This document shows, piece after piece, positions 2,695 to 15,846 of a stretch of DNA of 32,000 nucleotides. Source of the DNA: Candidatus Didemnitutus sp. (GTDB lineage: Bacteria; Verrucomicrobiota; Verrucomicrobiia; Opitutales; Opitutaceae); the NCBI GenBank assembly GCA_035545955.1, contig DASZXI010000077.1, positions 1 to 32,000 of the forward strand, given 5' to 3'. Below the pieces are notes generated by a model. It made no database searches and had not been told where the DNA came from. It saw only the letters and a program-made list of their open reading frames with translations. Positions within the stretch are counted from its first letter, which is position 1. Every line of letters begins with the position of its first letter. Made by a program: the position numbers and the translations under genes.

Positions 2695-3933
2695 TCACGT
2701 TCTCTTCTTCTCCACCTCCGGCAGGAATCCCGTGAGCAGGCCGATCAGCGGCAGATAGGCGCAGACCTTGAACACGAAGTTGATGCTCGTGTGATCGGCC
2801 AGCTGCCCGAGCAAGGCGGAGCCAATGCCGCCGGCACCGAACGCCAGCCCGAAAAACAGTCCGGCCACCAGTCCCACCCGACCCGGCATCAGCTCCTGCG
2901 CGTAGACGAGGATCGCGGAGAAGGCCGACGCGAGGATCAAACCCGCGCACATCGCGAGAACGATCGTGAGCGGAAGATTCACGTGCGGCAGCAGCAGCGA
3001 GAACGGCGCCACCCCGAGGATGGAAATCCAGATTACCGGTTTTCGACCGATGCGATCGCCGACCGGTCCACCGATGATCGTGCCTGCCGCCACGGCGAAC
3101 AGGAAACTGAACAGGCCGAACTGCGCCTGCGGCACGGACAGCGCAAAGCGATCCATGAGATAGAACGTGTAGTAGTTGCTCAGGCTGACGAGGTAGAAGT
3201 ACTTCGAGAAGATCAGCACGATCAGGATGAAGATCGCGAAAGCGACGCGCGCCGTCGAAAATGCCGACCTCTTGGACGCGGACGACGCCTTGCCCGCCGC
3301 GTGCGTCGCCGCGAGACGGCGGCGATACCATCCGCCCACGCGCCACAGGACAAAAATTCCCGCCGCGGCGAGCAGGGTGAAGGCCGCGATCGAATGCTGT
3401 CCGAACGGAACCACCACCAGTGCGGCCAGCGGCGGTCCGAGCGAGGAGCCGAAGTTGCCGCCAACCTGAAACAGCGACTGGGCGAAACCGTGCTTTCCGC
3501 CCGAGGCCATGCGGGCCACCCGCGAAGCCTCCGGATGGAAAATCGCCGAACCTGCGCCAACCGTCGCCGCCGAGATCAGGATCATCGGGTAACTCCACGC
3601 CTGCGAGAGCATCACCAGGCCGACCAGTGAAATCCCCATTCCGGTCGCCAATGAAAACGGCTTCGGATGGCGGTCAGTGTAGAGTCCGACGAACGGCTGC
3701 AGAATCGAGGCCGTGATCTGAAAGGTCAGGGTGATCAATCCTACCTGGGTGTAGTTCAGCCGAAAATTATCCTTCAGCACCGGATAGATCGCCGGGATCA
3801 GCGACTGGATCGTATCGTTCAGCAGATGCGAAATCGCCAGCGCCCACAGGATGCTCATCACCGTGGTGCGGGCCGCGTCGGCGGCGATCGCCTTCGCATC
3901 AACTCCGGGCTGACTGGGAACAACGGAACTCAT
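2695..3933 (-). CDS. MFS transporter (Fsr/fosmidomycin-resistance-like)
   Basis: The ORF is open to 4032, but the first ATG that precedes the first TM segment is at 3931-3933 (MSSVVPSQPG...). About 12 hydrophobic segments are visible. 'HLLNDTIQSLIPAIYPVLK' and 'GLYTDRHPKP' resemble the Fsr subfamily, as I remember it. Confidence 0.85.
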   Translation of the reverse strand: MSSVVPSQPGVDAKAIAADAARTTVMSILWALAISHLLNDTIQSLIPAIYPVLKDNFRLNYTQVGLITLTFQITASILQPFVGLYTDRHPKPFSLATGMGISLVGLVMLSQAWSYPMILISAATVGAGSAIFHPEASRVARMASGGKHGFAQSLFQVGGNFGSSLGPPLAALVVVPFGQHSIAAFTLLAAAGIFVLWRVGGWYRRRLAATHAAGKASSASKRSAFSTARVAFAIFILIVLIFSKYFYLVSLSNYYTFYLMDRFALSVPQAQFGLFSFLFAVAAGTIIGGPVGDRIGRKPVIWISILGVAPFSLLLPHVNLPLTIVLAMCAGLILASAFSAILVYAQELMPGRVGLVAGLFFGLAFGAGGIGSALLGQLADHTSINFVFKVCAYLPLIGLLTGFLPEVEKKRT

Positions 3934-4219
3934 CGCGCGCAAAGCTCGCCGCGACGGCGCGGCTGTCAAGGCACCCCAATGTGTCAACCCGTTCGGAGGT
4001 GGCACAGTGGGCCACCGGACGGTTCGCCACAATTCGCCGCCGGGATTTAAGCGACGTCATTTATTTGGCCCACGAATTTGCGCGAACAACGCACCCGTCA
4101 TCCAAATATCTTTAGATTCCGGTCAGACTCATGCCGTCGAACAAGAACTCTGGGGGGACGAGACCGCAGGGCGCAAACCACGAATCAGGGAATTCAATTC
4201 TCTCGCGGGTGAGGGGTCT

Positions 4220-4259: not shown

Positions 4260-5813
4260 TCACGCCACCGGCAACGAGTGTTCGGGCGCGCCGTTCGGAA
4301 TGGGTTTCAGCACCGGCTTCACTGTCGGTCTGATGGTTCGACGCGGTGGCGGCGCCGCGTGATTCGCTGCGCTTGCCGCTTGGGACGCTGCCCCGATCAG
4401 TTTCATCAGTTCGCCGACATTCTCGTGCATGACCTGCGCCTGGGCGCTCAATTCCTCCGCCGCCGCCGCGGTTTCCTCCGCGCTGCTGGCGTTGGCCTGC
4501 GTGACCTTATCCATTTGGCCGACCGCCGAGTTCACCTGGCCGATGCCCTGGTTTTGCTCGCTCGAAGCGGTGGCGATCTCGCCGACATGAGAGTCCACCT
4601 GGCGGGCCTTCTCGACGATCTGGCCCAGCGCCCGTGCCACTTCGGCGGAAATCGCCACGCCGCGATCGCTCCGCTGAATCGCATCCTCGATCTTGCCGGC
4701 GGTTTCCCGCGCGGCTCCCGCCGCCCGTTGCGCCAGGGCACGGACTTCCTCGGCGACGACCGCGAAACCGGCACCGGCCTCGCCCGCCCGCGCGGCCTCA
4801 ACCGCGGCGTTCAATGCGAGGATGTTCGTCTGAAAGGCAATTTCGTCGATGGTCTTGATGATCTTCGCGATGTCGGAGGACGAATCCTTGATGGCATCCA
4901 TCGCCGTCCGCATATCGTTCATCTGCACCGCACCATGCTCGGCCGCGGACCGCGTCTGTTGCGCCACGTCCTTCGCCTGCTGCGCGCTCTCGGCGTTGCG
5001 CTGCGTCATCGAGGCCATTTCCTCCAGCGACGCGCTCGTTTCCTCAAGACTGGCGGCCTGCTCGCTCGAACCATCGGCGAGGCTCTGGCTCGCGCCGGAA
5101 ACCTGACGCGAAGCGGCGGCCACCTGGTCGGCGCTGTCCCTGAGTCCGCCCGCCACGCGGCTCAACCGTGCGCCGATGCCGCGGGCGATCAGGAAACCGG
5201 CGACTGTCGCCGTCAGAAAGGAAATCACACCCAGCGTCACGGACGTGGTGAGGCTGCGGGTGGCGCTCGACTTGACCCCGTCCGCCTTCTCCTGGGCGGA
5301 TTTCTCGTTCAGCTCGACGCAGGCCTTGATGGCATCCGCGAAGACCCCGTAGGCCTTGACCGCATCGCCCTTCAGCAGCGCGAGCGCCTCGGCGTTCTTG
5401 TGGGCGCGGCTGAGTGCACGGACCTGCTTGGCCAGGGCCCGAAAATCGTTCAGCGCCGGCTCGATCTTCGCATGGAGCGCCATCTCCTCGTCCGAGTTCG
5501 CATACTTCTCGTGTTCCTTGATCAGGCCCAGGATCTCCTGCGCATGCGCGTCGCAATCCCGGTCGATCGCCGCCTTCTCCGCATCGTCATCCGCCAGAAT
5601 GTGGCGGTTGGTCAGGATGCGGTACTCGAGCGCATCGCGCTGCATGTGGCTGACGAGCTGCATTCCGGGCAGCTCGTCGCCGGCGATGTCGGACACGTCG
5701 GACTTGATGCCGCGGAGGGTGAAGATGAAGACGACGGTCGCGACCACATTGAGGATCACGAGAATGGCGAAGCCCAGCGTTAGACGCTGGCCGATGGTGA
5801 AGTTCTTGCTCAT
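4260..5813 (-). CDS. methyl-accepting chemotaxis protein (N-terminal TM + periplasmic helical sensor, HAMP, MA signalling domain)
   Basis: 517-aa ORF. It has an N-terminal TM segment '[21 protein letters not shown]' and a second TM segment '[19 protein letters not shown]'. The conserved signalling hairpin '[16 protein letters not shown]', '[39 protein letters not shown]' is present. Confidence 0.95.
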
Positions 5814-6150
5814 GGGATTCGTAAGTACGCGAGCAGTCCATCGACGATCCGCGCGAAAAATTCATCCGGCTCTCCGCCGCTTCCCGTCGACTTTTCCACG
5901 GCTCGCCAACGCGGGCGCCGCGTTCTCCATGAGTCTCCGACACTTAATGCCGCGGCCGCCCGTCGGAAGCCTCACGACGGCGTCCGAAAATAAATTTCGC
6001 CGAAGTCCGCAAGACGCCGGGATTTAACGCGATGTAAGCCCACCGCCTATATTCCGGATCGGGGATGCCCGCCGTCGAGCTGATCCCTTCGTCCGGCTGC
6101 AGGTTTCCGGCAGCCTTTCAGCCGTTCGCTCCTTCAGCCTTTCCCTCTGG

Positions 6151-6203
6151 TGTCCGGGCCGAGACTTGAACTCGGACGCCTTACGGCAATGGCTTCTAAA
6201 ACC
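6151..6203 (-). repeat. orphan duplicate of the 3' half of tRNA-Leu(UAG) (att-like direct repeat, distal island border)
   Basis: 6151-6203 matches 11203-11255 at 51/53 positions (mismatches at 6153 and 6200). The copy runs from the discriminator base to the anticodon loop and lacks the tRNA 5' half. Confidence 0.9.
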
Positions 6204-6383
6204 TGTATTTCCCGACGGAACGAAACCCCTCGGAGGGACACGACGGACTGAAGTGGCCCTTAGCGGTCCATAGCAGCCGCCGGAGATGGCGACGATATGG
6301 CGACGCATGAGACACGGCACACACCCCATTTCGCTATCAGCGTTGTGCCTTGAAAGCACCAGTCTACAGGACATCTTGCGCTT

Positions 6384-7226
6384 GTGGCAAAGAACTCCCA
6401 CATCGAATGGACGCATCACACGTTCAACCCTTGGTGGGGCTGCACGAAAGTCTCGCCTGCGTGCGACAATTGCTACGCTGAGTTGTGGGCGAAACGCGTC
6501 GGAGCGAAAGTGTGGGGCCACACGGCCTCACGTCGTTTCTTCGGCGATTCTCATTGGAAAGAGCCAGTGGCTTGGAATGCCGAGGCAGAGCGAAATGGAG
6601 AGCGGGCGCGAGTATTCTGCGCCAGCATGGCGGACGTGTTTGAGCGGCGGGCCGATCTTAATCCCCCTCGGGAAAGGCTGTGGAAGCTGATTGAGTCTAC
6701 GCCATGGCTCGACTGGCTGCTCCTGACCAAGCGACCGCAAAATGCGGCTAAAATGGTCCCATGGGGCAATTCGTGGCGAAAAAACGTCTGGATCGGCACT
6801 ACGGTCGAGAACCAGAAATTTGCCGAGCTTCGCTTGCCCCACTTACTAGCCCTGCCTGCCAGTGTCCGCTTTCTATCGTGCGAACCGCTGCTCGGCCCCA
6901 TTGACCTGACAAAGTGGATTGGTTCGGGGGCCGGGTTTCCGATCGACTGGGTCATCGCTGGAGGGGAGAGCGGGCCAAAAGCGCGACCGATGCATCCCGA
7001 TTGGGCTAGAGGGCTGATGCGGCAATGCCAGGCGAACGAAATCGCCTTCCATTTCAAGCAATGGGGTCACTGGGTGCCCGCCGAGATTTCCGGAGCCCCG
7101 GAGGATGCGGAAGAAATCGCATTCGACGATGCGAGGTCCGTGCGGATGACCAGATTGCCGAAAAAAGTGGCGGGCCGAATCCTTGAGGGTTTGACGTGGG
7201 ATCAAGTACCCGTTGGGGCCTCCTAG
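6384..7226 (+). CDS. DUF5131 / phage Gp37-Gp68 family protein (three-Cys-motif protein)
   Basis: 280-aa ORF with a GTG start. The N-terminus 'HIEWTHHTFNPWWGCTKVSPACDNCYA' is the family signature as I remember it. The three Cys motifs are GC..(6)..C..C (C20/C27/C30), 'VFCASMAD' (C79) and 'LSCEPLL' (C175), followed by 'WVIAGGESGP.ARP'. Confidence 0.85.
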   Translation: MAKNSHIEWTHHTFNPWWGCTKVSPACDNCYAELWAKRVGAKVWGHTASRRFFGDSHWKEPVAWNAEAERNGERARVFCASMADVFERRADLNPPRERLWKLIESTPWLDWLLLTKRPQNAAKMVPWGNSWRKNVWIGTTVENQKFAELRLPHLLALPASVRFLSCEPLLGPIDLTKWIGSGAGFPIDWVIAGGESGPKARPMHPDWARGLMRQCQANEIAFHFKQWGHWVPAEISGAPEDAEEIAFDDARSVRMTRLPKKVAGRILEGLTWDQVPVGAS

Positions 7227-8080
7227 CGGCGATATTTCTTCATTATGTGCTTCGCGATTCGCTCGCCCGTCTCGTTGTGACCGGCGAAGAAAAGATAATA
7301 CACGATCGCGCCTATTGAGTTCTTCATCGCCACTGGGTGCGGAACGAATTTAAAGCCGGCGACGGTCTTAAGCCGTTCGCGGAATGCTTCGACCAAAGTA
7401 TCGTTTCCGGTCTTTTCTGTTTCGGTCATCGCGCCACCGCCGAGATCGAACGCCATCTGCGGGCTCGGCTTGAACATCACTGCGTGCCAGTCCTCGTTGC
7501 CCCACAACCTGGTCATGCGCGCCCGGCCGTCGGGGCTGATGTCTTCCAAGCGTGCGCGTTTGGCGTTTCGATTGATGTCAGCCACCGGGAAATTGAGAAA
7601 TATTTCGATGGACCCGGATTTTCCGGCGGCCTCGAGAACCTTCCAATCAACGTGCATGCCGTAGGGGTCGATGAAGCAAAGAGCCCGCCGATACTGCTTG
7701 AATGGAAATTTTGGGAAAATCGTATCGAGCAGGATGGCATTGCAGTCGCCACTGTACACGTGGGCATTTGCGTGCCCTCGACACAGGGCTTGGAGCTGGC
7801 CGACCCGGGCATCATCGAGGTCCACGAAATGAAATTCGTCGAATCCCGGCGTTGCGAGGGCGATGGCCGGACTGCCGGGGATTTCTTCCCGGGATGACTT
7901 GTGCAAGTGTTTGCCAGCGCCAGCGAAGCCATCAATGTAGCCGGTCTTGAAAAGTCTGGCCCCGGTGTTCGTCCTTTGATTGCTGAGGATGGCGGCGTAT
8001 TCTTTGGAATAGGCCTGGAGAATGCGGAGTTTGTCTACTGACCACTGTCCAATCTCGTCGAGGCCGTCCGGGTTATTCAT
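7223..8080 (-). CDS. tcmP: three-Cys-motif partner protein TcmP (methyltransferase-fold-like)
   Basis: 285-aa ORF with ATG at 8078-8080. 'W...K...L..Y...Y', 'GYIDGFAGAG' (aa 47-56), 'GSPAIAL' and 'ALCFIDPYG' (aa 133-141) match my memory of the TIGR04474 TcmP family. It is adjacent to a DUF5131 gene, as the family definition expects. Confidence 0.8.
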   Translation of the reverse strand: MNNPDGLDEIGQWSVDKLRILQAYSKEYAAILSNQRTNTGARLFKTGYIDGFAGAGKHLHKSSREEIPGSPAIALATPGFDEFHFVDLDDARVGQLQALCRGHANAHVYSGDCNAILLDTIFPKFPFKQYRRALCFIDPYGMHVDWKVLEAAGKSGSIEIFLNFPVADINRNAKRARLEDISPDGRARMTRLWGNEDWHAVMFKPSPQMAFDLGGGAMTETEKTGNDTLVEAFRERLKTVAGFKFVPHPVAMKNSIGAIVYYLFFAGHNETGERIAKHIMKKYRR

Positions 8081-8199
8081 TCGATTTACGACGGTCTTCG
8101 CCGCTGGCCCTCAGCAAATTTCCCGTCCGCAGTTTTAAAGTGGATACGGGGTGAGCTGTCGACTTTTTCGCATTGGCCAGAAAACCCGAACACCAACTC

Positions 8200-8970
8200 T
8201 CACTGTCCCAGGAACGACCAATCCTGATCCGGGAACCTCTGTTCGAGTGACGCCCGCAATTCGGACCCCGCGGTACGGAGATCCACGGCCGCCTTCTGCG
8301 CTTCGAACAATGCCTCGGCAACCTTCTCGGCTTGATTCCTCAGGGCCTCCTCCTTCGCAGCACGTTTCTCCATGCTCTTCCCGATAACCGAAAGACTCGA
8401 CGCCACCAATCCCGGAACATTTCCCTGAACCGTGGCCGACACGATCTCAAAAAGCGGAGCCAGATCCGGTGGGCTCGCCTTTTCCTTCAATCCTTCTCGG
8501 GTGAGTTCGGCAAGTCGCCCCTCCTCGAGAAAAAGCTGCATCCGCTTCCCCATAGACGTCTGGCGAAGAGCCACTGCCTGGGCAGCTTGCGGATCAACCC
8601 CTCTTGCCCCGATGTTCCCAATCTGCCGCTGCGCCTCGCCGTATATATCGGTCAGCACGTGAAATCTCTGGGCAAGAAGGTTCCAATAAATTTCCTCCTC
8701 TAATCGGATCTCACGCATCTCCGGACCGAACGGTGCAACCGGTCGTCCCTTGGTAGTGGTCGTCGGAGCGACCGGTCTCTCGATCCGCGGGAGTACAGCG
8801 AGCTTGGCGTGCAGGTCGTGGGAGATCGAGATGTAGGTTTCGAGATACAATTTGGTTCGCGATCCGTCGTCGCGGGTGCAACAAGCCATGAAAACAAAGG
8901 CGATACAGAGCCCGCCCCAAAGCGCCCAATGCGGAACGGCCGGTTTCTTCACGACGGAGCAGCAAGCCAC
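8200..8970 (-). CDS. hypothetical lipoprotein / membrane-anchored helical protein
   Basis: 256-aa ORF with a GTG start. The N-terminus 'VKKPAVPHWALWGGLCIAFVFMAC' looks like a signal peptide with a lipobox-like FMAC. The remainder is Ala/Glu/Leu-rich, consistent with helical or coiled structure. I recognise no family. Confidence 0.6.
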   Translation of the reverse strand: MACCSVVKKPAVPHWALWGGLCIAFVFMACCTRDDGSRTKLYLETYISISHDLHAKLAVLPRIERPVAPTTTTKGRPVAPFGPEMREIRLEEEIYWNLLAQRFHVLTDIYGEAQRQIGNIGARGVDPQAAQAVALRQTSMGKRMQLFLEEGRLAELTREGLKEKASPPDLAPLFEIVSATVQGNVPGLVASSLSVIGKSMEKRAAKEEALRNQAEKVAEALFEAQKAAVDLRTAGSELRASLEQRFPDQDWSFLGQ

Positions 8971-9021
8971 GCGTTAAAGCGATCGCCCGCAACGAATGCG
9001 ATCACCAAGCAGCGACAAGAA

Positions 9022-9411
9022 TCATTCGATCGCACCGTTAGCTACCTCCCGTTCAGTCGACTGAGCGGTCGCTGGACGCACCGGAGTCTCATCGATCACG
9101 TTCCACTCAAAGACCTCGCCGTCTTTCATCCGGACGCCGTAATATCCGACGAGCGAGCTTCCGTGCCAGTCATCTGGCGCTGTTTCATCACCGCGGTGGA
9201 GGTCGACAACCCAATACCCTTTCCGCACGACAGCAACGCCGCACCAATACGCCCCAGGTCCGTTTTCGTTTGCGAGGTGCAGTCGCGAACCAGCGGCCCG
9301 GACGACTTCGCACGCCTTGTGTTCCGTGGTCACGGGACTATCGGATTTCGTCGCGGCCACGGCGAGTTGCGCCGAGAACGACAACAAAATGATGAGCGAC
9401 CGCAGCTTCAT
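9022..9411 (-). CDS. hypothetical secreted protein
   Basis: I chose the ATG at 9409-9411, which gives the signal peptide MKLRSLIILLSFSAQLAVAA. This start overlaps the upstream gene's stop as ATGA (9408-9411). Confidence 0.65.
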   Translation of the reverse strand: MKLRSLIILLSFSAQLAVAATKSDSPVTTEHKACEVVRAAGSRLHLANENGPGAYWCGVAVVRKGYWVVDLHRGDETAPDDWHGSSLVGYYGVRMKDGEVFEWNVIDETPVRPATAQSTEREVANGAIE

Positions 9412-9815
9412 GACTTCTTCCGATAAAGGTACAGCACGCCCAATTCGTCTATCTTTCCGGTCTTCTTCCATTGGGCGAACGCCTTGATCGTCCAGAGAAC
9501 CGGTGTGCCCCGAAGCACCCTTGGCACGCGCTCCGGATCGTGCAGTCCCTGCGCATCAAGGAGAATATGGTCACCAATGATTTTCACGGATCCGGTAATC
9601 GGCGGAGGCTCTGCTCCGACCACGTCTGTAAAATACGTTCGCCGGAAACTGTCCTCGTGGATTTCCACGACCTCGCCCGCGAACCAGCTGTGGGTGGGGT
9701 CCGGGACGTAAGTTCCGTCAGACACAAGCAAACCCTCGAAAGACCTGGAGCCCGATGCGGCGAGTCCGAGCAGTGATAGCGCAGCAGCCACCATAAGAAT
9801 CCGAAGTCCTCTCAT
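9408..9815 (-). CDS. hypothetical secreted protein
   Basis: I chose the ATG at 9813-9815, which gives the signal peptide MRGLRILMVAAALSLLGLAASG. The 61-aa extension in the ORF track has no support. Confidence 0.65.
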   Translation of the reverse strand: MRGLRILMVAAALSLLGLAASGSRSFEGLLVSDGTYVPDPTHSWFAGEVVEIHEDSFRRTYFTDVVGAEPPPITGSVKIIGDHILLDAQGLHDPERVPRVLRGTPVLWTIKAFAQWKKTGKIDELGVLYLYRKKS

Positions 9816-9949
9816 AATTTTTCTTTCGTCTTCGTCCCGATGAAGAGCGCGATCAAGCAAGCCGCAGCGGACGCCAGACAAATCGCCGCTGCGACCGCAT
9901 CCTTGTCCCCGATGAACAAGGCGACCACGACTACGAACGGGACAAACAA
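9812..9949 (-). CDS. candidate 45-aa two-TM micro-protein (absent from the ORF track, below its size cut-off)
   Basis: Hand translation from TTG at 9947-9949 gives (M)FVPFVVVVALFIGDKDAVAAAICLASAAACLIALFIGTKTKEKL*. That is two hydrophobic stretches separated by GDKD, with a basic tail. Its TGA overlaps the next gene's ATG as ATGA (9812-9815). An alternative GTG start lies at 9926-9928. Confidence 0.35.
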   Translation of the reverse strand: MFVPFVVVVALFIGDKDAVAAAICLASAAACLIALFIGTKTKEKL

Positions 9950-10356
9950 GGTGAGACAGATCTGGTATCAGCACCGCAAAGCACTGGATGAACTTCATTG
10001 AGGGACTTCACTGGAATTGCACGTTTCGCCCGACCAATCGCTGAAGCGACAAGCTCGCATTGGTCCATGTCAATCCAATCGGTGTGAGCGATGGTGGCCC
10101 ATTTTCGCCACGCAATACAAAGTCCAATGCATGGCCCAAGACCCGTCGTGAAGAACCGAATTGATTGAGCGCAGACTGCAAATTCGCTCTGAAATACCCG
10201 TCGAGACTTTCCCGGCGCAGGAGAAAATGGTGCGGCCGCTCTCCTCACTAATGTCCTAGACTTCCTCGCGAGCCGTTTCCATTCGAGGCTGTTCGGAGTC
10301 AATCTCCACCGCTCTGCGCTGTCCGTCATGCCGGTGAGCAATGATTTACCGTTCAC
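9931..10356 (-). CDS. hypothetical 141-aa protein
   Basis: It is the only ORF covering this interval. The GTG start overlaps the upstream stop as GTGA (10353-10356), and an alternative ATG lies at 10327-10329. GC3 is about 75% in the first 32 codons by hand count, which favours coding. No signal peptide is seen and I recognise no family. Confidence 0.45.
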   Translation of the reverse strand: MNGKSLLTGMTDSAERWRLTPNSLEWKRLARKSRTLVRRAAAPFSPAPGKSRRVFQSEFAVCAQSIRFFTTGLGPCIGLCIAWRKWATIAHTDWIDMDQCELVASAIGRAKRAIPVKSLNEVHPVLCGADTRSVSPCLSRS

Positions 10357-10865
10357 TTCGCCTTCTCGAGGAGCACCTTTTTCTGCGCTTCGAATTCGGC
10401 GTCTGTGATCAGGCCCTTCTTCCGTAGCTCATCGAGCTTTGTGATCTCGGTGTACAGGTCGAACGGTTTGGCGCTATCCTTGCCTTTGTCACCTGTGTCG
10501 ATCTTCACGTCGACGCTATCATGCCGCTCGACGACCTTGTCAAGGCGATCAACCATCGTGGTACGCTTTGCCTCTGGGTCCTCCTTGTCGACGACCCGAA
10601 ACTGGAGTTCGCAGTTGGCAAAATGTCCCGGAAACATGGGCGAGGAATGAAAGGTCAACGGGACCATAACCTTACCCTGCTTCGCGGCGAACGCGGCCGC
10701 GTCCCGGTAAACACCTGCCTTGAGGGCTGACTCGTTTCCGAAGATCCCGCCGTGATCGGTGCGAGCCAAAAGGTAGGTGTCGGGCGAGATGCTGACGATC
10801 TCGGGATTTGCGCAGGCCGAGAGGATGGCAACGACGGCTGCCAAGCCGATGATGCAGTAGTTCAT
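10353..10865 (-). CDS. lipoprotein with C-terminal SHOCT domain
   Basis: The ATG at 10863-10865 gives MNYCIIGLAAVVAILSAC, a signal peptide with lipobox ILSAC. The C-terminus 'ITKLDELRKKGLITDAEFEAQKKVLLEK' matches the SHOCT (short C-terminal domain) pattern. Confidence 0.7.
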   Translation of the reverse strand: MNYCIIGLAAVVAILSACANPEIVSISPDTYLLARTDHGGIFGNESALKAGVYRDAAAFAAKQGKVMVPLTFHSSPMFPGHFANCELQFRVVDKEDPEAKRTTMVDRLDKVVERHDSVDVKIDTGDKGKDSAKPFDLYTEITKLDELRKKGLITDAEFEAQKKVLLEKAK

Positions 10866-11202
10866 TGGTACGATCTCTCGCCGACCAGAGGCCCTTCTGG
10901 GAGCGACAGATGTCACACAATGGATTGAACCGGTGGATACGACAAGCTCGCTTGTCGGAACAATTCCGACATCGAAAAGTTATCACTTCCCTCCTCCGAT
11001 TTGCCGGAGCGGAGTCAAGGGAGCCTCGGCCCTTGGGCACGGAAGGGGCGCGGCACCCCGACCGGCCAGGCGGGGCTGGTGCCACTACTCCTCACGCATC
11101 GGCGCCGCAGACAATTGCGAGTTTGAACTGGCGACAACCGACGACGCGATTCACTTCGTCGGCGATGACCAAAGATTCCCCAACTCGTTATTCCCCAGAG
11201 AG

Positions 11203-11284
11203 TGCCCGGGCCGAGACTTGAACTCGGACGCCTTACGGCAATGGCTTCTAAGACCATCGTGTCTGCCAATTCCACCACCCGGGC
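11203..11284 (-). tRNA. tRNA-Leu (anticodon UAG), class II, CCA not encoded
   Basis: The reverse complement folds as follows: acceptor stem GCCCGGG/CCCGGGC; D arm GTG-GAATTGGCAGA-CAC; anticodon stem ATGGT/GCCAT with loop CTTAGAA; long variable arm TGCCGTAAGGCGT; T arm CCGAG-TTCAAGT-CTCGG; discriminator A. Total length is 82 nt. Confidence 0.95.
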
Positions 11285-11290
11285 CCTGGA

Positions 11291-11325
11291 AATTTTCGAT
11301 TTTGGATTGCGGATTTTGGATTCCC
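11291..11325. repeat. heptad repeat (GATTNNN)x4-5, left arm of a long-range inverted pair
   Basis: aattttc gattttg gattgcg gattttg gattccc. 11291-11308 is the exact reverse complement of 11635-11652. Confidence 0.8.
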
Positions 11326-11620
11326 CGAACCCGACTTTCGAGAGTGGGATTTCGGATTTTCGACGGCCTGACGCAAGCGTGGAGTGGCTGCGCCTCGAAC
11401 CGGCATGACTTGAACCACGGAGGTCTTTAACCACGGATTTCACGGACGGCACGGATTCCCCCAACCCAAGCGCGTTGAATTGACGCGCTTTCCGCTTCCC
11501 GGATCTCGCTTCTTCTTCCGGCATTCCGCGTCCCGCTCACGTCACCCTGCTCACTGTTTTTGAACCACGGAGGCACAGAGACAAGGCCCTCATCCCGTCC
11601 CCGCCGCCTCTCGGATCAGC

Positions 11621-11655
11621 AATCCCAAATCGAGAATCCAAAATCGAAAATTACC
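11621..11655. repeat. heptad repeat (AATCNNN)x4-5, right arm of the inverted pair
   Basis: aatccca aatcgag aatccaa aatcgaa aattacc. It ends 6 nt before the FG-GAP gene stop codon (11661-11663). Confidence 0.8.
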
Positions 11656-11660
11656 TCGTC

Positions 11661-12404
11661 CTATTGACTGAACAAAATGGTGACCTTCGAGTCCGATTGA
11701 TTGACGACGATGATGTCGTCCCGCCGGCCACCGTTGAGATCGGCCACCGCAAGCAATTCCGGTTCATGCTTTAGATCGATGGTCGCCGCCACCCGCATGG
11801 TGCCGTCCGCGCCCTCCAGCACGGTGAGGGTATTGTCGACGTCGTTGGCCACGACGATGTCCGGCACATCGTCGCCGTTCACATCGCCCACCGCCACCGC
11901 GTGCGTTCCGCGTCCGGCGGGAAACGGTGAGCCGCGCATCGGACGCGATTGTCCGGTCGCCTGCCCCATTTCCACGTAAATTGACCGCCTGGCCTCCCCC
12001 GCATCGGTGGCTTTGCAGGCCAACACCGCATCGACCACGCGGTCATGGTTCAGGTCGGCGAAAGCTACCATCGATGGCCGCTGCTCGATGCGGTAAGGCG
12101 CCATAGGCGACGGCACAAAGCCGCCATTCCCGTCACACCAGTAAGTCCGCACCTCGTCGCCGATCACGGTCAGGTCGTCGCACCCATCGTGATTCATGTC
12201 GCCGATGATCACCGTTTCGGAATTCTCGACGTGCAGGTTCGACTTCACGAGTGTTTCGCGAAATCCGCCCGTGCCGTCCCCGAGTGCGACCGCCAGATCG
12301 CAGTCCGGCAATCCCGCCAGCAACACGCTCAGGTGACCGCTGCGGTCAAACCGGCCCACGCCCTCCAAATGGGGAGTAACGGCGAGCTTTCGGACCCAGA
12401 TCAA
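11661..12404 (-). CDS. FG-GAP/VCBS-repeat protein, apparently lacking its N-terminus
   Basis: Repeated 'DLN.D...D..V', 'GD(V/M)N(G/H)D..(P)D', 'GNGG(F)' FG-GAP-like Ca-binding motifs are present. The only canonical start is TTG at 12402-12404. The frame stays open and FG-GAP-like (DIDRVIDVALGNGEDGF) upstream to a stop at 12528-12530. There is no signal peptide. Confidence 0.55.
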   Translation of the reverse strand: MIWVRKLAVTPHLEGVGRFDRSGHLSVLLAGLPDCDLAVALGDGTGGFRETLVKSNLHVENSETVIIGDMNHDGCDDLTVIGDEVRTYWCDGNGGFVPSPMAPYRIEQRPSMVAFADLNHDRVVDAVLACKATDAGEARRSIYVEMGQATGQSRPMRGSPFPAGRGTHAVAVGDVNGDDVPDIVVANDVDNTLTVLEGADGTMRVAATIDLKHEPELLAVADLNGGRRDDIIVVNQSDSKVTILFSQ

Positions 12405-15304: not shown

Positions 15305-15387
15305 ATTCCAATTCAAGCACGAATCTTCCAGCCATTGAGGGAAAATGAGTCTTCGCCTGCCACGCCACCATTCCATTGATCCATGCC

Positions 15388-15846
15388 ATGCCCGGACATC
15401 TGCGTCGCCTGGCTCAGGTGTGGAAGAAATGCCCCACCTATTTTGTCACTACCTGCACTGCGGGGAGGCAGCCAATTCTGTGCGATGACTTGGTCCACGA
15501 GGTCCTGCGGTTGGAATGGCAATCCCTCTCTTCACGTCTCGGCTGGAGCGTCGGTCGTTATGTTGTCATGCCGGACCACGTTCATTTCTTCCTGACGCAA
15601 TCCTTCGATACCTCCGCATCGCTAGGCTCTGCCGTTGGACAGTGGAAGGAGCGAACGGCCCGACGAATCAACCGATTCCGGCACACGCAAGGACGCGTCT
15701 GGCAGCCAGCGTTCTTCGACCATCTGCTTCGCTCGAGCGAATCGCGCTCCGAAAAGTGGGCCTATATTCAGCAAAGTCCGGTCCGCGCCGGGTTGGTCTC
15801 CCGCTCATGCGAATGGCCCTATGCAGGTTGGATCCACTACGAATAG
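15388..15846 (+). CDS. REP-associated tyrosine transposase (RAYT; IS200/IS605 Y1 HUH transposase-like)
   Basis: The ATG at 15388 gives MPGHLRRL...YFVTTCT. The HUH motif is 'VMPDHVHFF'. The C-terminal 'WAYIQQSPVRAGLV' carries the candidate catalytic Tyr. The gene is flanked by inverted GTAG-headed REPs. Confidence 0.85.
   Translation: MPGHLRRLAQVWKKCPTYFVTTCTAGRQPILCDDLVHEVLRLEWQSLSSRLGWSVGRYVVMPDHVHFFLTQSFDTSASLGSAVGQWKERTARRINRFRHTQGRVWQPAFFDHLLRSSESRSEKWAYIQQSPVRAGLVSRSCEWPYAGWIHYE

What the first reader, a model, noticed from the sequence alone, without database searches (positions are those of the whole stretch)
6151..11284. Integrase-less ~5.1-kb island in tRNA-Leu(UAG), bounded by a 53-bp duplicate of the tRNA 3' half
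Seen in sequence: 6151-6203 and 11203-11255 are direct repeats, 51/53 identical. The right copy is the 3' part (discriminator base to anticodon loop) of an intact, foldable tRNA-Leu(UAG). The left copy is an orphan with no tRNA 5' half. This is the classic attL/attR footprint of tyrosine-integrase insertion into a tRNA 3' end. The enclosed DNA is visibly AT-richer in my spot counts (about 53% versus about 65%). It contains only phage-related or hypothetical genes. I could not recognise any integrase, recombinase, excisionase or transposase in any frame between the repeats, or in the 337 nt next to the tRNA. The element is therefore either a decayed remnant, or a small satellite-like island mobilised in trans.
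Basis: partly seen in the sequence, partly recalled or inferred. Interest (0 to 1): 0.7.

Follow-up and report, generated by a model that had tools for sequence, protein, structure and literature searches.

The report
Integrase-less island remnant at tRNA-Leu
A 5-kb piece of foreign DNA carrying a candidate anti-phage gene pair sits just after a leucine tRNA gene in an uncultured soil Opitutaceae bacterium, with the classic footprint of site-specific integration but no integrase of its own; this is an ordinary, already well-described kind of decayed or hitch-hiking genomic island.

Summary
An intact tRNA-Leu(UAG) lies at 11202-11284 on the minus strand. Its 3' 54 nt are repeated at 6150-6203 (52/54 identical), with 4,998 bp of lower-GC DNA in between: 57.5% versus 63-66%, and GC3 0.66-0.73 versus 0.76-0.87. 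No recombinase is detectable in any frame.

New evidence supports an insertion. The orphan copy keeps the encoded CCA end that most relatives have, while the working tRNA does not, so the orphan is the displaced original 3' end. At least nine Opitutaceae relatives have the order PSD, tRNA-Leu, MFS without any island gene. The repeat starts at the anticodon loop, exactly where a family of tyrosine integrases found next to this same tRNA in five relatives has its junctions.

Cargo is a DUF5131/TcmP pair (PADLOC candidate defence system PDC-M41) plus four small predicted secreted or lipoprotein genes, one of them a strict ORFan. No second copy of the island or its att core was found anywhere, and the orphan has two private substitutions.

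The best reading is an integrase-less relic, CIME-like in structure, of an anticodon-loop tDNA island at a variable defence-island hotspot. Active trans-mobilisation is not excluded but has no support. This is a new member of a known kind and of low interest.

The parts
11202..11284 (-). Intact, regenerated tRNA-Leu(UAG). Its 3' 54 nt (11202-11255) form the right repeat copy. It ends ...GCA-C then TCT, so no CCA is encoded.
   Evidence: ARAGORN; Rfam RF00005, 54.5 bits, E 5.5e-10; sequence read
6148..6203 (-). Orphan 3' fragment of tRNA-Leu. The repeat copy is 6150-6203, and the native CCA is at 6148-6150. It has two private bases, U32 (6200) and A71 (6153). This is the displaced original 3' end marking the far boundary of the island.
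   Evidence: neither private base occurs in any of the 57 relatives' tRNA-Leu(TAG) genes
6204..11201 (.). Island interior, 4,998 bp, 57.5% GC.
   Evidence: identical to a separate 5,062-bp Logan contig covering 6170-11231
6384..7226 (+). DUF5131 (phage Gp37/Gp68-type three-Cys-motif protein), component B of PADLOC PDC-M41.
   Evidence: PF07505 E 1e-85; PDC-M41B E 7e-58
7223..8080 (-). [quoted passage not shown] It is convergent with DUF5131 and the two overlap by 4 nt.
   Evidence: TIGR04474 E 6e-59; PDC-M41A E 6e-65; 3,369 homologues, the nearest 63% identical
8200..8970 (-). Hypothetical 250-256 aa protein with a lipoprotein-like N-terminus (my reading of the sequence). Strict ORFan.
   Evidence: matches only itself among 5.8 billion proteins; GC3 0.66
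9022..9411 (-). Small (129 aa) protein with a signal-peptide-like N-terminus. It belongs to a rare family.
   Evidence: about 70 representative clusters at E<=1e-3 out of 1.84 billion, at most 51% identity; no Pfam match
9408..9794 (-). Small (128 aa) protein with a signal-peptide-like N-terminus. It is unrelated to its neighbour.
   Evidence: gene call on the Logan contig; no Pfam match; not a paralogue of 9022-9411
9795..10352 (.). About 560 nt with no clear coding signal. It may be degraded sequence.
   Evidence: frame-specific GC profile; no Pfam match in any frame
10353..10865 (-). SHOCT-domain lipoprotein.
   Evidence: PF09851 E 5e-9; 74 homologues of at most 62% identity, scattered over several phyla
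10917..11201 (.). 285-nt non-coding spacer next to the tRNA 3' end. Relatives' elements place their integrase here. It holds no integrase trace and no TCTATAC motif.

Best explanation
This is the integrase-less relic of a small genomic island that entered tRNA-Leu(UAG) by tyrosine-recombinase site-specific recombination at the anticodon-loop sublocation. The incoming circle carried an attP copy of the tRNA from the anticodon stem to base 74. Recombination joined that copy to the host 5' half, which regenerated a working tRNA (11202-11284). The original 3' half with its CCA was pushed 5 kb away (6148-6203). The recombinase gene is no longer present. Either it was deleted afterwards, or it belonged to a neighbouring element in a tandem array that has since left, as with CIMEs. 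The island now most likely sits as a fixed, slowly decaying islet. What it contributes to the cell is its cargo: a DUF5131/TcmP pair that is a candidate anti-phage system (PDC-M41), plus four small envelope or secreted proteins. Shown: the repeat, the intact tRNA, the compositional shift, the absence of any recombinase, the absence of the island from relatives, and the cargo identities. Inferred: the recombination mechanism, the direction of displacement, the loss of the integrase, and the defence function.
For: The footprint is real and non-random. The orphan keeps the encoded CCA found in most relatives, whereas the functional copy does not. [quoted passage not shown] The repeat starts at the anticodon stem/loop, the most frequent crossover class in Islander (2,083 of 3,919). 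Relatives L004, L006, L008, L012, L016, L019, L020, L024, L130 and L146 show PSD, tRNA-Leu(TAG), then the MFS orthologue. The MFS starts 0.2-1.8 kb after the tRNA in six of them and 2.9-5.3 kb after in the other four. None of the 160 loci holds an island gene. A family of PF00589 integrases, 60-86% identical to each other, lies beside this same tRNA in L164, L209, L029, L143 and L168, and the L029 and L143 junctions fall at ...GGTCTTAGAA|. The island is compositionally foreign. Evidence for relic status: no recombinase in any frame; no integrase anywhere in the 32 kb; the orphan has two private transitions, one at position 32 inside the anticodon loop where strand exchange is expected; no second copy of the att core in IMG/VR or JGI metagenomes; the 256-aa cargo protein is unique among 5.8 billion proteins; and a 560-nt stretch has no coding signal.
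Against: No same-species genome with an empty site exists in the collections. The nearest relatives reach only 82% and 78% PSD identity, so the attB sequence and the precision of the insertion are inferred, not seen. The three closest genomes each have different DNA after the tRNA, so some of the difference could come from replacement rather than a single insertion. There is no trace at all of a deleted integrase, and the conserved int-proximal motif of the relatives' elements is missing. That fits an element that never had its own integrase as well as it fits deletion. The two repeat mismatches could have come from attP rather than from decay. Only 32 kb of the genome was available, so a helper integrase elsewhere cannot be excluded.
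Confidence: 0.6

Rival explanations
1. It is an active hitch-hiker. The island is an integrase-less, att-flanked element (CIME-like or satellite-like) that still excises and integrates using a tRNA-Leu(UAG)-specific integrase encoded by another element in the same cell. Mobilisation would be in trans, or in cis after tandem integration.
For: Both att copies are nearly intact (52/54). Integrases that use exactly this tRNA and sublocation circulate in the family. The Logan assembly graph of the source sample branches exactly at the tRNA 3' end, because contig L002 stops at 11231 rather than 11235, so another context for this tRNA end exists in that sample. No integrase remnant is detectable, which fits an element that never had one. 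CIMEs are a recognised class (PMC6323972).
Against: No second copy of the island, its genes as a set, or its att core turned up in any collection. No helper integrase lies in the 32-kb window. The island shares no sequence or motif with the integrase-bearing elements in relatives. The orphan's U32 lies in the presumed overlap region, and such heterology is known to impair tyrosine-recombinase exchange; this step is an inference from lambda Int biology. The graph branch could equally come from a related organism in a soil metagenome.
Confidence: 0.2
2. It is not a site-specific integration. The orphan would be what is left of a second, tandem tRNA-Leu gene that decayed. The DNA between the copies would then have accumulated, or been swapped in by homologous recombination, at a variable hotspot.
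For: L005 carries two full tRNA-Leu(TAG) genes 1.16 kb apart. Short 17-41-nt copies of the tRNA 3' end lie 0.15-1.2 kb downstream in L044, L076, L146 and L168. The site is variable among the three closest genomes.
Against: The orphan's boundary is sharp and falls at the anticodon loop, a canonical crossover sublocation and the one seen at the relatives' integrase junctions. The CCA pattern fits displacement. The whole 5-kb interior has a uniform, foreign composition. The two L005 genes belong to different sequence classes, whereas the two copies here are 96% identical.
Confidence: 0.1
3. It is an assembly artefact. The metagenome assembler would have joined DNA from another organism into this contig through the shared 46-nt exact repeat.
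For: The source is a metagenome-assembled genome. At k=31 the island forms a separate contig bounded by the repeats.
Against: Both junctions lie inside one 162.5-kb contig. A 54-nt repeat is shorter than the final k-mer of the usual metagenome assemblers; the sister MAG's contig names carry k141, though I did not see this contig's own assembly parameters. The orphan's CCA runs straight on into the host flank and the island into the tRNA trailer, which makes a coherent integration structure and not a random join.
Confidence: 0.03

Closest known systems
tDNA-integrated genomic islands as defined by Islander (Hudson, Lau & Williams 2015, PMC4383910; Williams 2002 sublocation classes)
   Same: A regenerated tRNA gene plus a displaced 3' fragment in direct orientation mark the two ends. 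[quoted passage not shown] The DNA has a foreign composition, and the island lies downstream of the tRNA.
   Different: No tyrosine integrase gene lies inside, although such islands normally carry one next to the tRNA. At 5 kb the island is small.
CIMEs, the cis-mobilizable elements first described with Streptococcus thermophilus ICESt1/ICESt3 (definition in ICEberg 2.0, PMC6323972)
   Same: attL and attR are retained while the integration/excision and transfer genes are missing. The element sits at a site used by integrase-bearing elements in related genomes.
   Different: There is no demonstrated or sequence-level relationship to any ICE or IME. No neighbouring helper is present. The host phylum (Verrucomicrobiota) and the target differ. 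One att copy carries a substitution in the presumed crossover region. Mobility is untested.
Integrase-bearing tRNA-Leu(UAG) islands of other Opitutaceae
   Same: They use the same target gene, and the junction with foreign DNA falls at the same place in the anticodon loop. They are small islands whose cargo includes defence-type genes in L029 (TerB plus a BrxC/D-family ATPase) and regulators in L164 (HTH_3, DUF7665).
   Different: They carry a PF00589 integrase 70-120 nt from the junction and a conserved TTGAC...TCTATAC...TCTATAC region. The window's island has neither, and it shares no genes with them.
PADLOC candidate defence system PDC-M41 (the DUF5131 + TcmP 'three-Cys-motif' pair, TIGR04474)
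   Same: Both components are present and adjacent, with strong HMM matches. Relatives of the pair occur as two-gene cassettes, one of them inside a clear defence island (L125).
   Different: The genes are convergent here, whereas the closest relatives have them co-directional. The literature held here reports no experimental anti-phage activity for the pair.

Membership tests
tDNA genomic island (Islander criteria) | An intact target tDNA plus a displaced fragment of the same tDNA in direct orientation on the same replicon | tested here: met
   tRNA at 11202-11284; fragment at 6150-6203, 52/54 identical, same strand
tDNA genomic island (Islander criteria) | The fragment boundary lies at a canonical crossover sublocation (anticodon loop, T loop or 3' junction) | tested here: met
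   The identity block starts at linear position 30, two bases before the anticodon loop, and ends at base 74. This is class A in Islander.
tDNA genomic island (Islander criteria) | A tyrosine (or serine) integrase gene is encoded inside the island | tested here: not met
   No Phage_integrase, resolvase or transposase match in the ORFs or in six-frame scans. tblastn with the relatives' integrases gives a best E of 0.48.
tDNA genomic island (Islander criteria) | The island is absent from related genomes, which show an uninterrupted site | tested here: inconclusive
   Island genes are absent from all 160 syntenic loci, and the tRNA-MFS adjacency is conserved in at least nine. The nearest relatives are different species (82% and 78% PSD identity) and carry other DNA at the site. 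No same-species empty site is available.
CIME (cis-mobilizable element) | Lacks integration/excision and conjugation genes | tested here: met
   only DUF5131, TcmP, SHOCT and hypothetical genes
CIME (cis-mobilizable element) | Retains functional attL and attR | tested here: inconclusive
   Both copies are present at 96% identity. The orphan differs at position 32, inside the presumed overlap region, and at position 71. Function cannot be judged from sequence.
CIME (cis-mobilizable element) | Derived from, and mobilised by, a related ICE or IME that integrates at the same att site | not testable with these tools
   No helper lies in the 32-kb window. Integrases for this site exist in other species, but they share nothing with the island. 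The rest of the genome is not available.
Phage satellite (PICI, P4-like, PLE) | Own integrase, replication initiator or primase, and genes for hijacking helper packaging | tested here: not met
   None of these domains appears in any frame. No PHROG-type phage module is evident, and DUF5131 is the only phage-associated family.
PADLOC PDC-M41 candidate defence system | Adjacent genes matching both the PDC-M41A and PDC-M41B profiles | tested here: met
   7223-8080 matches PDC-M41A at E 6e-65, and 6384-7226 matches PDC-M41B at E 7e-58
PADLOC PDC-M41 candidate defence system | Protects against phage infection | not testable with these tools
   The literature held here contains no experimental report.

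The most novel reading that the evidence does not exclude
The island is a live, minimal defence hitch-hiker. It would consist of 5 kb of cargo between two att sites and encode no recombinase. The family of anticodon-loop tRNA-Leu(UAG) integrases carried by other small defence islands in Opitutaceae would move it, in trans or in cis. That would extend CIME-type parasitism of integrative elements to Verrucomicrobiota and to the traffic of defence systems.
Probability: 0.12. Interest if true: 0.5.

Novelty: new member of a known kind. Interest (0 to 1): 0.25.

Why it matters
The main value is as annotation. It explains a half-tRNA and a compositional anomaly in an uncultured soil Opitutaceae genome, and it places a DUF5131/TcmP candidate defence pair on horizontally acquired DNA. 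It also shows that the site downstream of tRNA-Leu(UAG) is a variable hotspot in this family, used by one family of tyrosine integrases carrying defence-type cargo. If the island were shown to excise, it would be an example of integrase-less defence cargo riding on other elements' recombinases in a little-studied phylum. As it stands, it is a routine degenerate tDNA islet.

Tried and rejected
(1) I looked for a recombinase in four ways: Pfam on the ORFs, six-frame translations of 8050-11700 at E<=1, alternative-frame ORFs of 6024-8321, and tblastn with the relatives' tRNA-Leu integrases. All were negative. The first attempt, with raw references, failed because of stop codons.

(2) I looked for the same island elsewhere. 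The viral-contig scan with DUF5131 found 42 loci, but they share only that gene, with TcmP adjacent in 4. An exact 32-nt att-core search found nothing in IMG/VR or in JGI metagenomes. The 256-aa cargo protein has no homologue at all.

(3) I looked for a same-species empty site. The genome and metagenome scans with the PSD flank protein reached only 82% and 78% identity.

(4) I tried to read the Logan assembly graph for an empty-site allele. The left-flank contig could not be retrieved, because the MCP and glyoxalase proteins are not on record. That left only the suggestive end of L002 at 11231.

(5) Clustering ORFs downstream of the tRNA in relatives was too noisy because of shadow ORFs in high-GC DNA. 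I replaced it with a Pfam census and a recombinase probe.

(6) I considered whether DUF5131/TcmP might itself be the mobility module. I rejected this as unsupported, because the pair's relatives sit in unrelated contexts without tRNA halves or integrases. I did not test those cassettes for flanking repeats.

(7) Arm-type repeats at the island ends are only weak short repeats, and the relatives' TCTATAC motif is absent. The promoter and terminator scans were at background level.


Full report
**Observation**

The window contains one tRNA gene, tRNA-Leu(anticodon TAG), at 11202-11284 on the minus strand (ARAGORN; Rfam RF00005, 54.5 bits). Its 3' 54 nt (11202-11255) are repeated in direct orientation at 6150-6203 with 52/54 identity. 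A 27-nt core with up to three mismatches occurs exactly twice, against 0.00 expected in shuffles, and the 32 kb holds no third copy. The left copy has no tRNA 5' half and matches no Rfam family.

The GC contrast was overstated. Third-position GC is 0.66-0.73 for island genes and 0.76-0.87 for all flanking genes.

**Gene content**

The interior is densely occupied:

- 6384-7226 (+) is a DUF5131 / phage Gp37-Gp68-type protein (PF07505, E 1e-85).
[quoted passage not shown] It is convergent with DUF5131 and overlaps it by 4 nt.
- Together the two match both components of the PADLOC candidate defence system PDC-M41 (E 6e-65 and 7e-58).
- Four minus-strand genes follow, at 8200-8970, 9022-9411, 9408-9794 and 10353-10865. 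All have signal-peptide-like or lipoprotein-like N-termini by my reading of the sequence.
- The last of these has a SHOCT domain and 74 scattered homologues of at most 62% identity.
- The 129-aa protein belongs to a rare family, with about 70 representative clusters out of 1.84 billion.
- The 256-aa protein matches only itself among 5.8 billion proteins.
- 9795-10352 has no coding signal.
- A 285-nt non-coding spacer at 10917-11201 adjoins the tRNA.

**No recombinase**

Four tests found none: Pfam on the ORFs, a six-frame scan of 8050-11700 at E<=1, and the alternative-frame ORFs of 6024-8321 give no integrase, resolvase, transposase or excisionase. The rest of the window has none either. The only mobile-element gene is an IS200-like Y1 transposase at 15376-15846, a type that does not produce tRNA-half duplications.

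**Source and relatives**

The self-hits name the source as an NCBI third-party MAG of Candidatus Didemnitutus sp. (Opitutaceae, Verrucomicrobiota), on a 162.5-kb contig.

I scanned species-representative genomes and JGI metagenomes with the flanking phosphatidylserine decarboxylase (PSD). This gave 160 syntenic loci, of which the nearest are 82% (L003) and 78% (L130) identical. PSD followed by tRNA-Leu(TAG) is widely conserved.

In L004, L006, L008, L012, L016, L019, L020, L024, L130 and L146 the orthologue of the window's MFS gene (2695-4032; 64-79% identity) follows the tRNA. The gap is only 181-212 nt in L008, L016 and L019. A Pfam census of 108 ORFs downstream of the tRNA in relatives is dominated by MFS_1, PALP and OGG, which matches the window's own left flank. 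No locus contains any island gene. The island is therefore an insertion relative to the family's ground plan.

Two caveats apply. No same-species genome was available. The three closest genomes each hold different DNA after the tRNA: in L003 a DUF5677 protein and a 1,667-aa protein, and in L130 about 3.2 kb of unknown ORFs. The site behaves as a variable hotspot.

**Direction of the event**

Read in tRNA sense, the orphan ends ...CCCGGACAC-CAG. It therefore keeps the encoded CCA that most of the relatives' 57 genes have. The functional gene ends ...CCCGGGCAC-TCT. This is what is expected if the orphan is the original 3' end displaced by the insertion and the element supplied the new 3' half. 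Islander states the same principle (PMC4383910). The orphan's two private bases, U32 and A71, occur in none of the 57 relatives' genes. That fits neutral decay after displacement, although inheritance from attP cannot be excluded.

**Sublocation and candidate recombinases**

The identity block begins two bases before the anticodon loop and ends at base 74. This is the anticodon-centred class, the commonest in Islander.

Five relatives (L164, L209, L029, L143, L168) carry one family of PF00589 integrases beside this same tRNA. Pfam gave E 1e-16 and 2e-17 for the two tested, and the five are 60-86% identical to each other. In L164 and L209 the integrase starts about 70 nt after an intact tRNA. 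In L029 and L143 the tRNA sequence stops at ...GGTCTTAGAA| and foreign DNA follows. The window's repeat boundary, AT|GGTCTTAGAAGCC, coincides with this point.

These elements carry regulatory and defence-type cargo. L164 has an HTH_3 repressor and DUF7665, and L029 has a TerB_N/TerB/TerB_C protein plus a BrxC/D-family ATPase. They share no genes with the window's island. The island also lacks their conserved TTGAC...TCTATAC...TCTATAC region, and tblastn with their integrases finds nothing in the window (best E 0.48).

**Mobility**

I found no evidence that the island is currently mobile. Exact searches for a 32-nt att core gave no hit in IMG/VR or JGI metagenomes. DUF5131 homologues on viral contigs are at most 64% identical and share no other island gene. 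The nearest TcmP relatives (57-63% identity) sit as two-gene cassettes in unrelated contexts, one within a GmrSD/SMC/Eco57I/SNF2-PLD defence island, and none is next to a tRNA or an integrase.

One loose end remains. In the k=31 Logan assembly of the source run SRR12170516, the island is a separate contig covering 6170-11231. Its stop at 11231 rather than 11235 implies an extra graph branch exactly at the tRNA 3' end. That could be an empty-site allele or just a related organism. I could not retrieve the left-flank contig to decide between them.

**Interpretation**

The best-supported account (confidence 0.6) has four steps:

- A small integrative element entered tRNA-Leu(UAG) through a tyrosine recombinase acting at the anticodon loop.
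- This regenerated the gene and displaced the old 3' end.
- The recombinase is now gone, either by deletion or because it belonged to a departed tandem neighbour.
- The islet persists as a CIME-like relic whose present role is its cargo.

The rival explanations and my confidence in each are:

- An active hitch-hiker mobilised by another element's integrase (0.2).
- A decayed tandem tRNA duplicate with accreted DNA (0.1). L005's two tRNA-Leu genes and the short 3'-end copies in L044, L076, L146 and L168 show that such debris exists in the family.
- An assembly artefact (0.03).

The defence role of DUF5131/TcmP rests only on profile matches and neighbourhood. I found no experimental report.

**Verdict**

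The feature is a new member of a well-known kind, an integrase-less tDNA islet. It is locally informative but not surprising. Interest: 0.25.

Noticed in passing
L029:12634-13942 and L143:11015-12304: In two relatives the tRNA-Leu(TAG) sequence stops right after the anticodon loop (...GGTCTTAGAA|). AT-rich foreign DNA and a Phage_integrase gene follow. No tRNA 3' half lies within 7 kb in L029, and ARAGORN calls no tRNA there. The target gene seems not to be regenerated at the integrase-proximal junction, unlike in L164 and L209.
   Followed up: partly
window 11288-11655: A 368-bp stretch directly upstream of the tRNA is bounded by 35-nt inverted repeats (86% complementary). The repeats are built from GATTTTSGATTT-like units. 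Similar AAATCGAAAATC units lie upstream of tRNA-Leu in L143. This could be a MITE/REP-like element or a conserved promoter region.
   Followed up: partly
window 15376-15846 (+): An IS200-like / RAYT-like Y1 transposase ORF (PF01797, E 4e-9) has a lower GC3 (0.67) than its neighbours. It lies 4 kb from the tRNA. It may be related to the repeat units near the tRNA.
   Followed up: no
window 4260-5813 (-) and 11661-12404 (-): The methyl-accepting chemotaxis gene lies between the orphan and the MFS gene. The FG-GAP repeat gene lies between PSD and the tRNA. Neither has a counterpart at this locus in any of the 160 relatives' loci, yet both have host-like GC3 (0.84 and 0.77). They may be older lineage-specific additions on both sides of the tRNA.
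   Followed up: partly
L005:12494-13737: A Lacunisphaera MAG has two tRNA-Leu(TAG) genes 1.16 kb apart. They belong to the two different sequence classes seen in the family (CTTAGGA-type and CTTAGAA-type anticodon arms). The contig ends at the second gene.
   Followed up: no
L044:11219-11237, L076:12881-12897, L146:11483-11507, L168:9642-9682: Short 17-41-nt copies of the tRNA-Leu 3' end lie 0.15-1.2 kb downstream of the gene in four relatives. They may be mini-footprints of past integration and excision at the same site.
   Followed up: partly
L029:15514-20447: The integrase-bearing island at tRNA-Leu in this relative carries a 1,205-aa TerB_N/TerB/TerB_C protein followed by a BrxC/BrxD-family ATPase (PF10923, E 7e-152). 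This is a defence-like pair.
   Followed up: no
L002 (Logan SRR12170516 contig = window 6170-11231): The k=31 contig stops at 11231, four bases short of where the two window copies alone would force a break. The sample therefore holds another sequence context that starts exactly at the tRNA 3' end. This may be an empty-site allele or a related organism.
   Followed up: partly
L125:10001-20885: The closest long-contig relative of the TcmP pair sits inside a dense defence island containing GmrSD, an SMC-like ATPase, an Eco57I-type RM fusion and an SNF2/PLD helicase. There its partner is a radical-SAM-like protein of 356 aa and not DUF5131.
   Followed up: no
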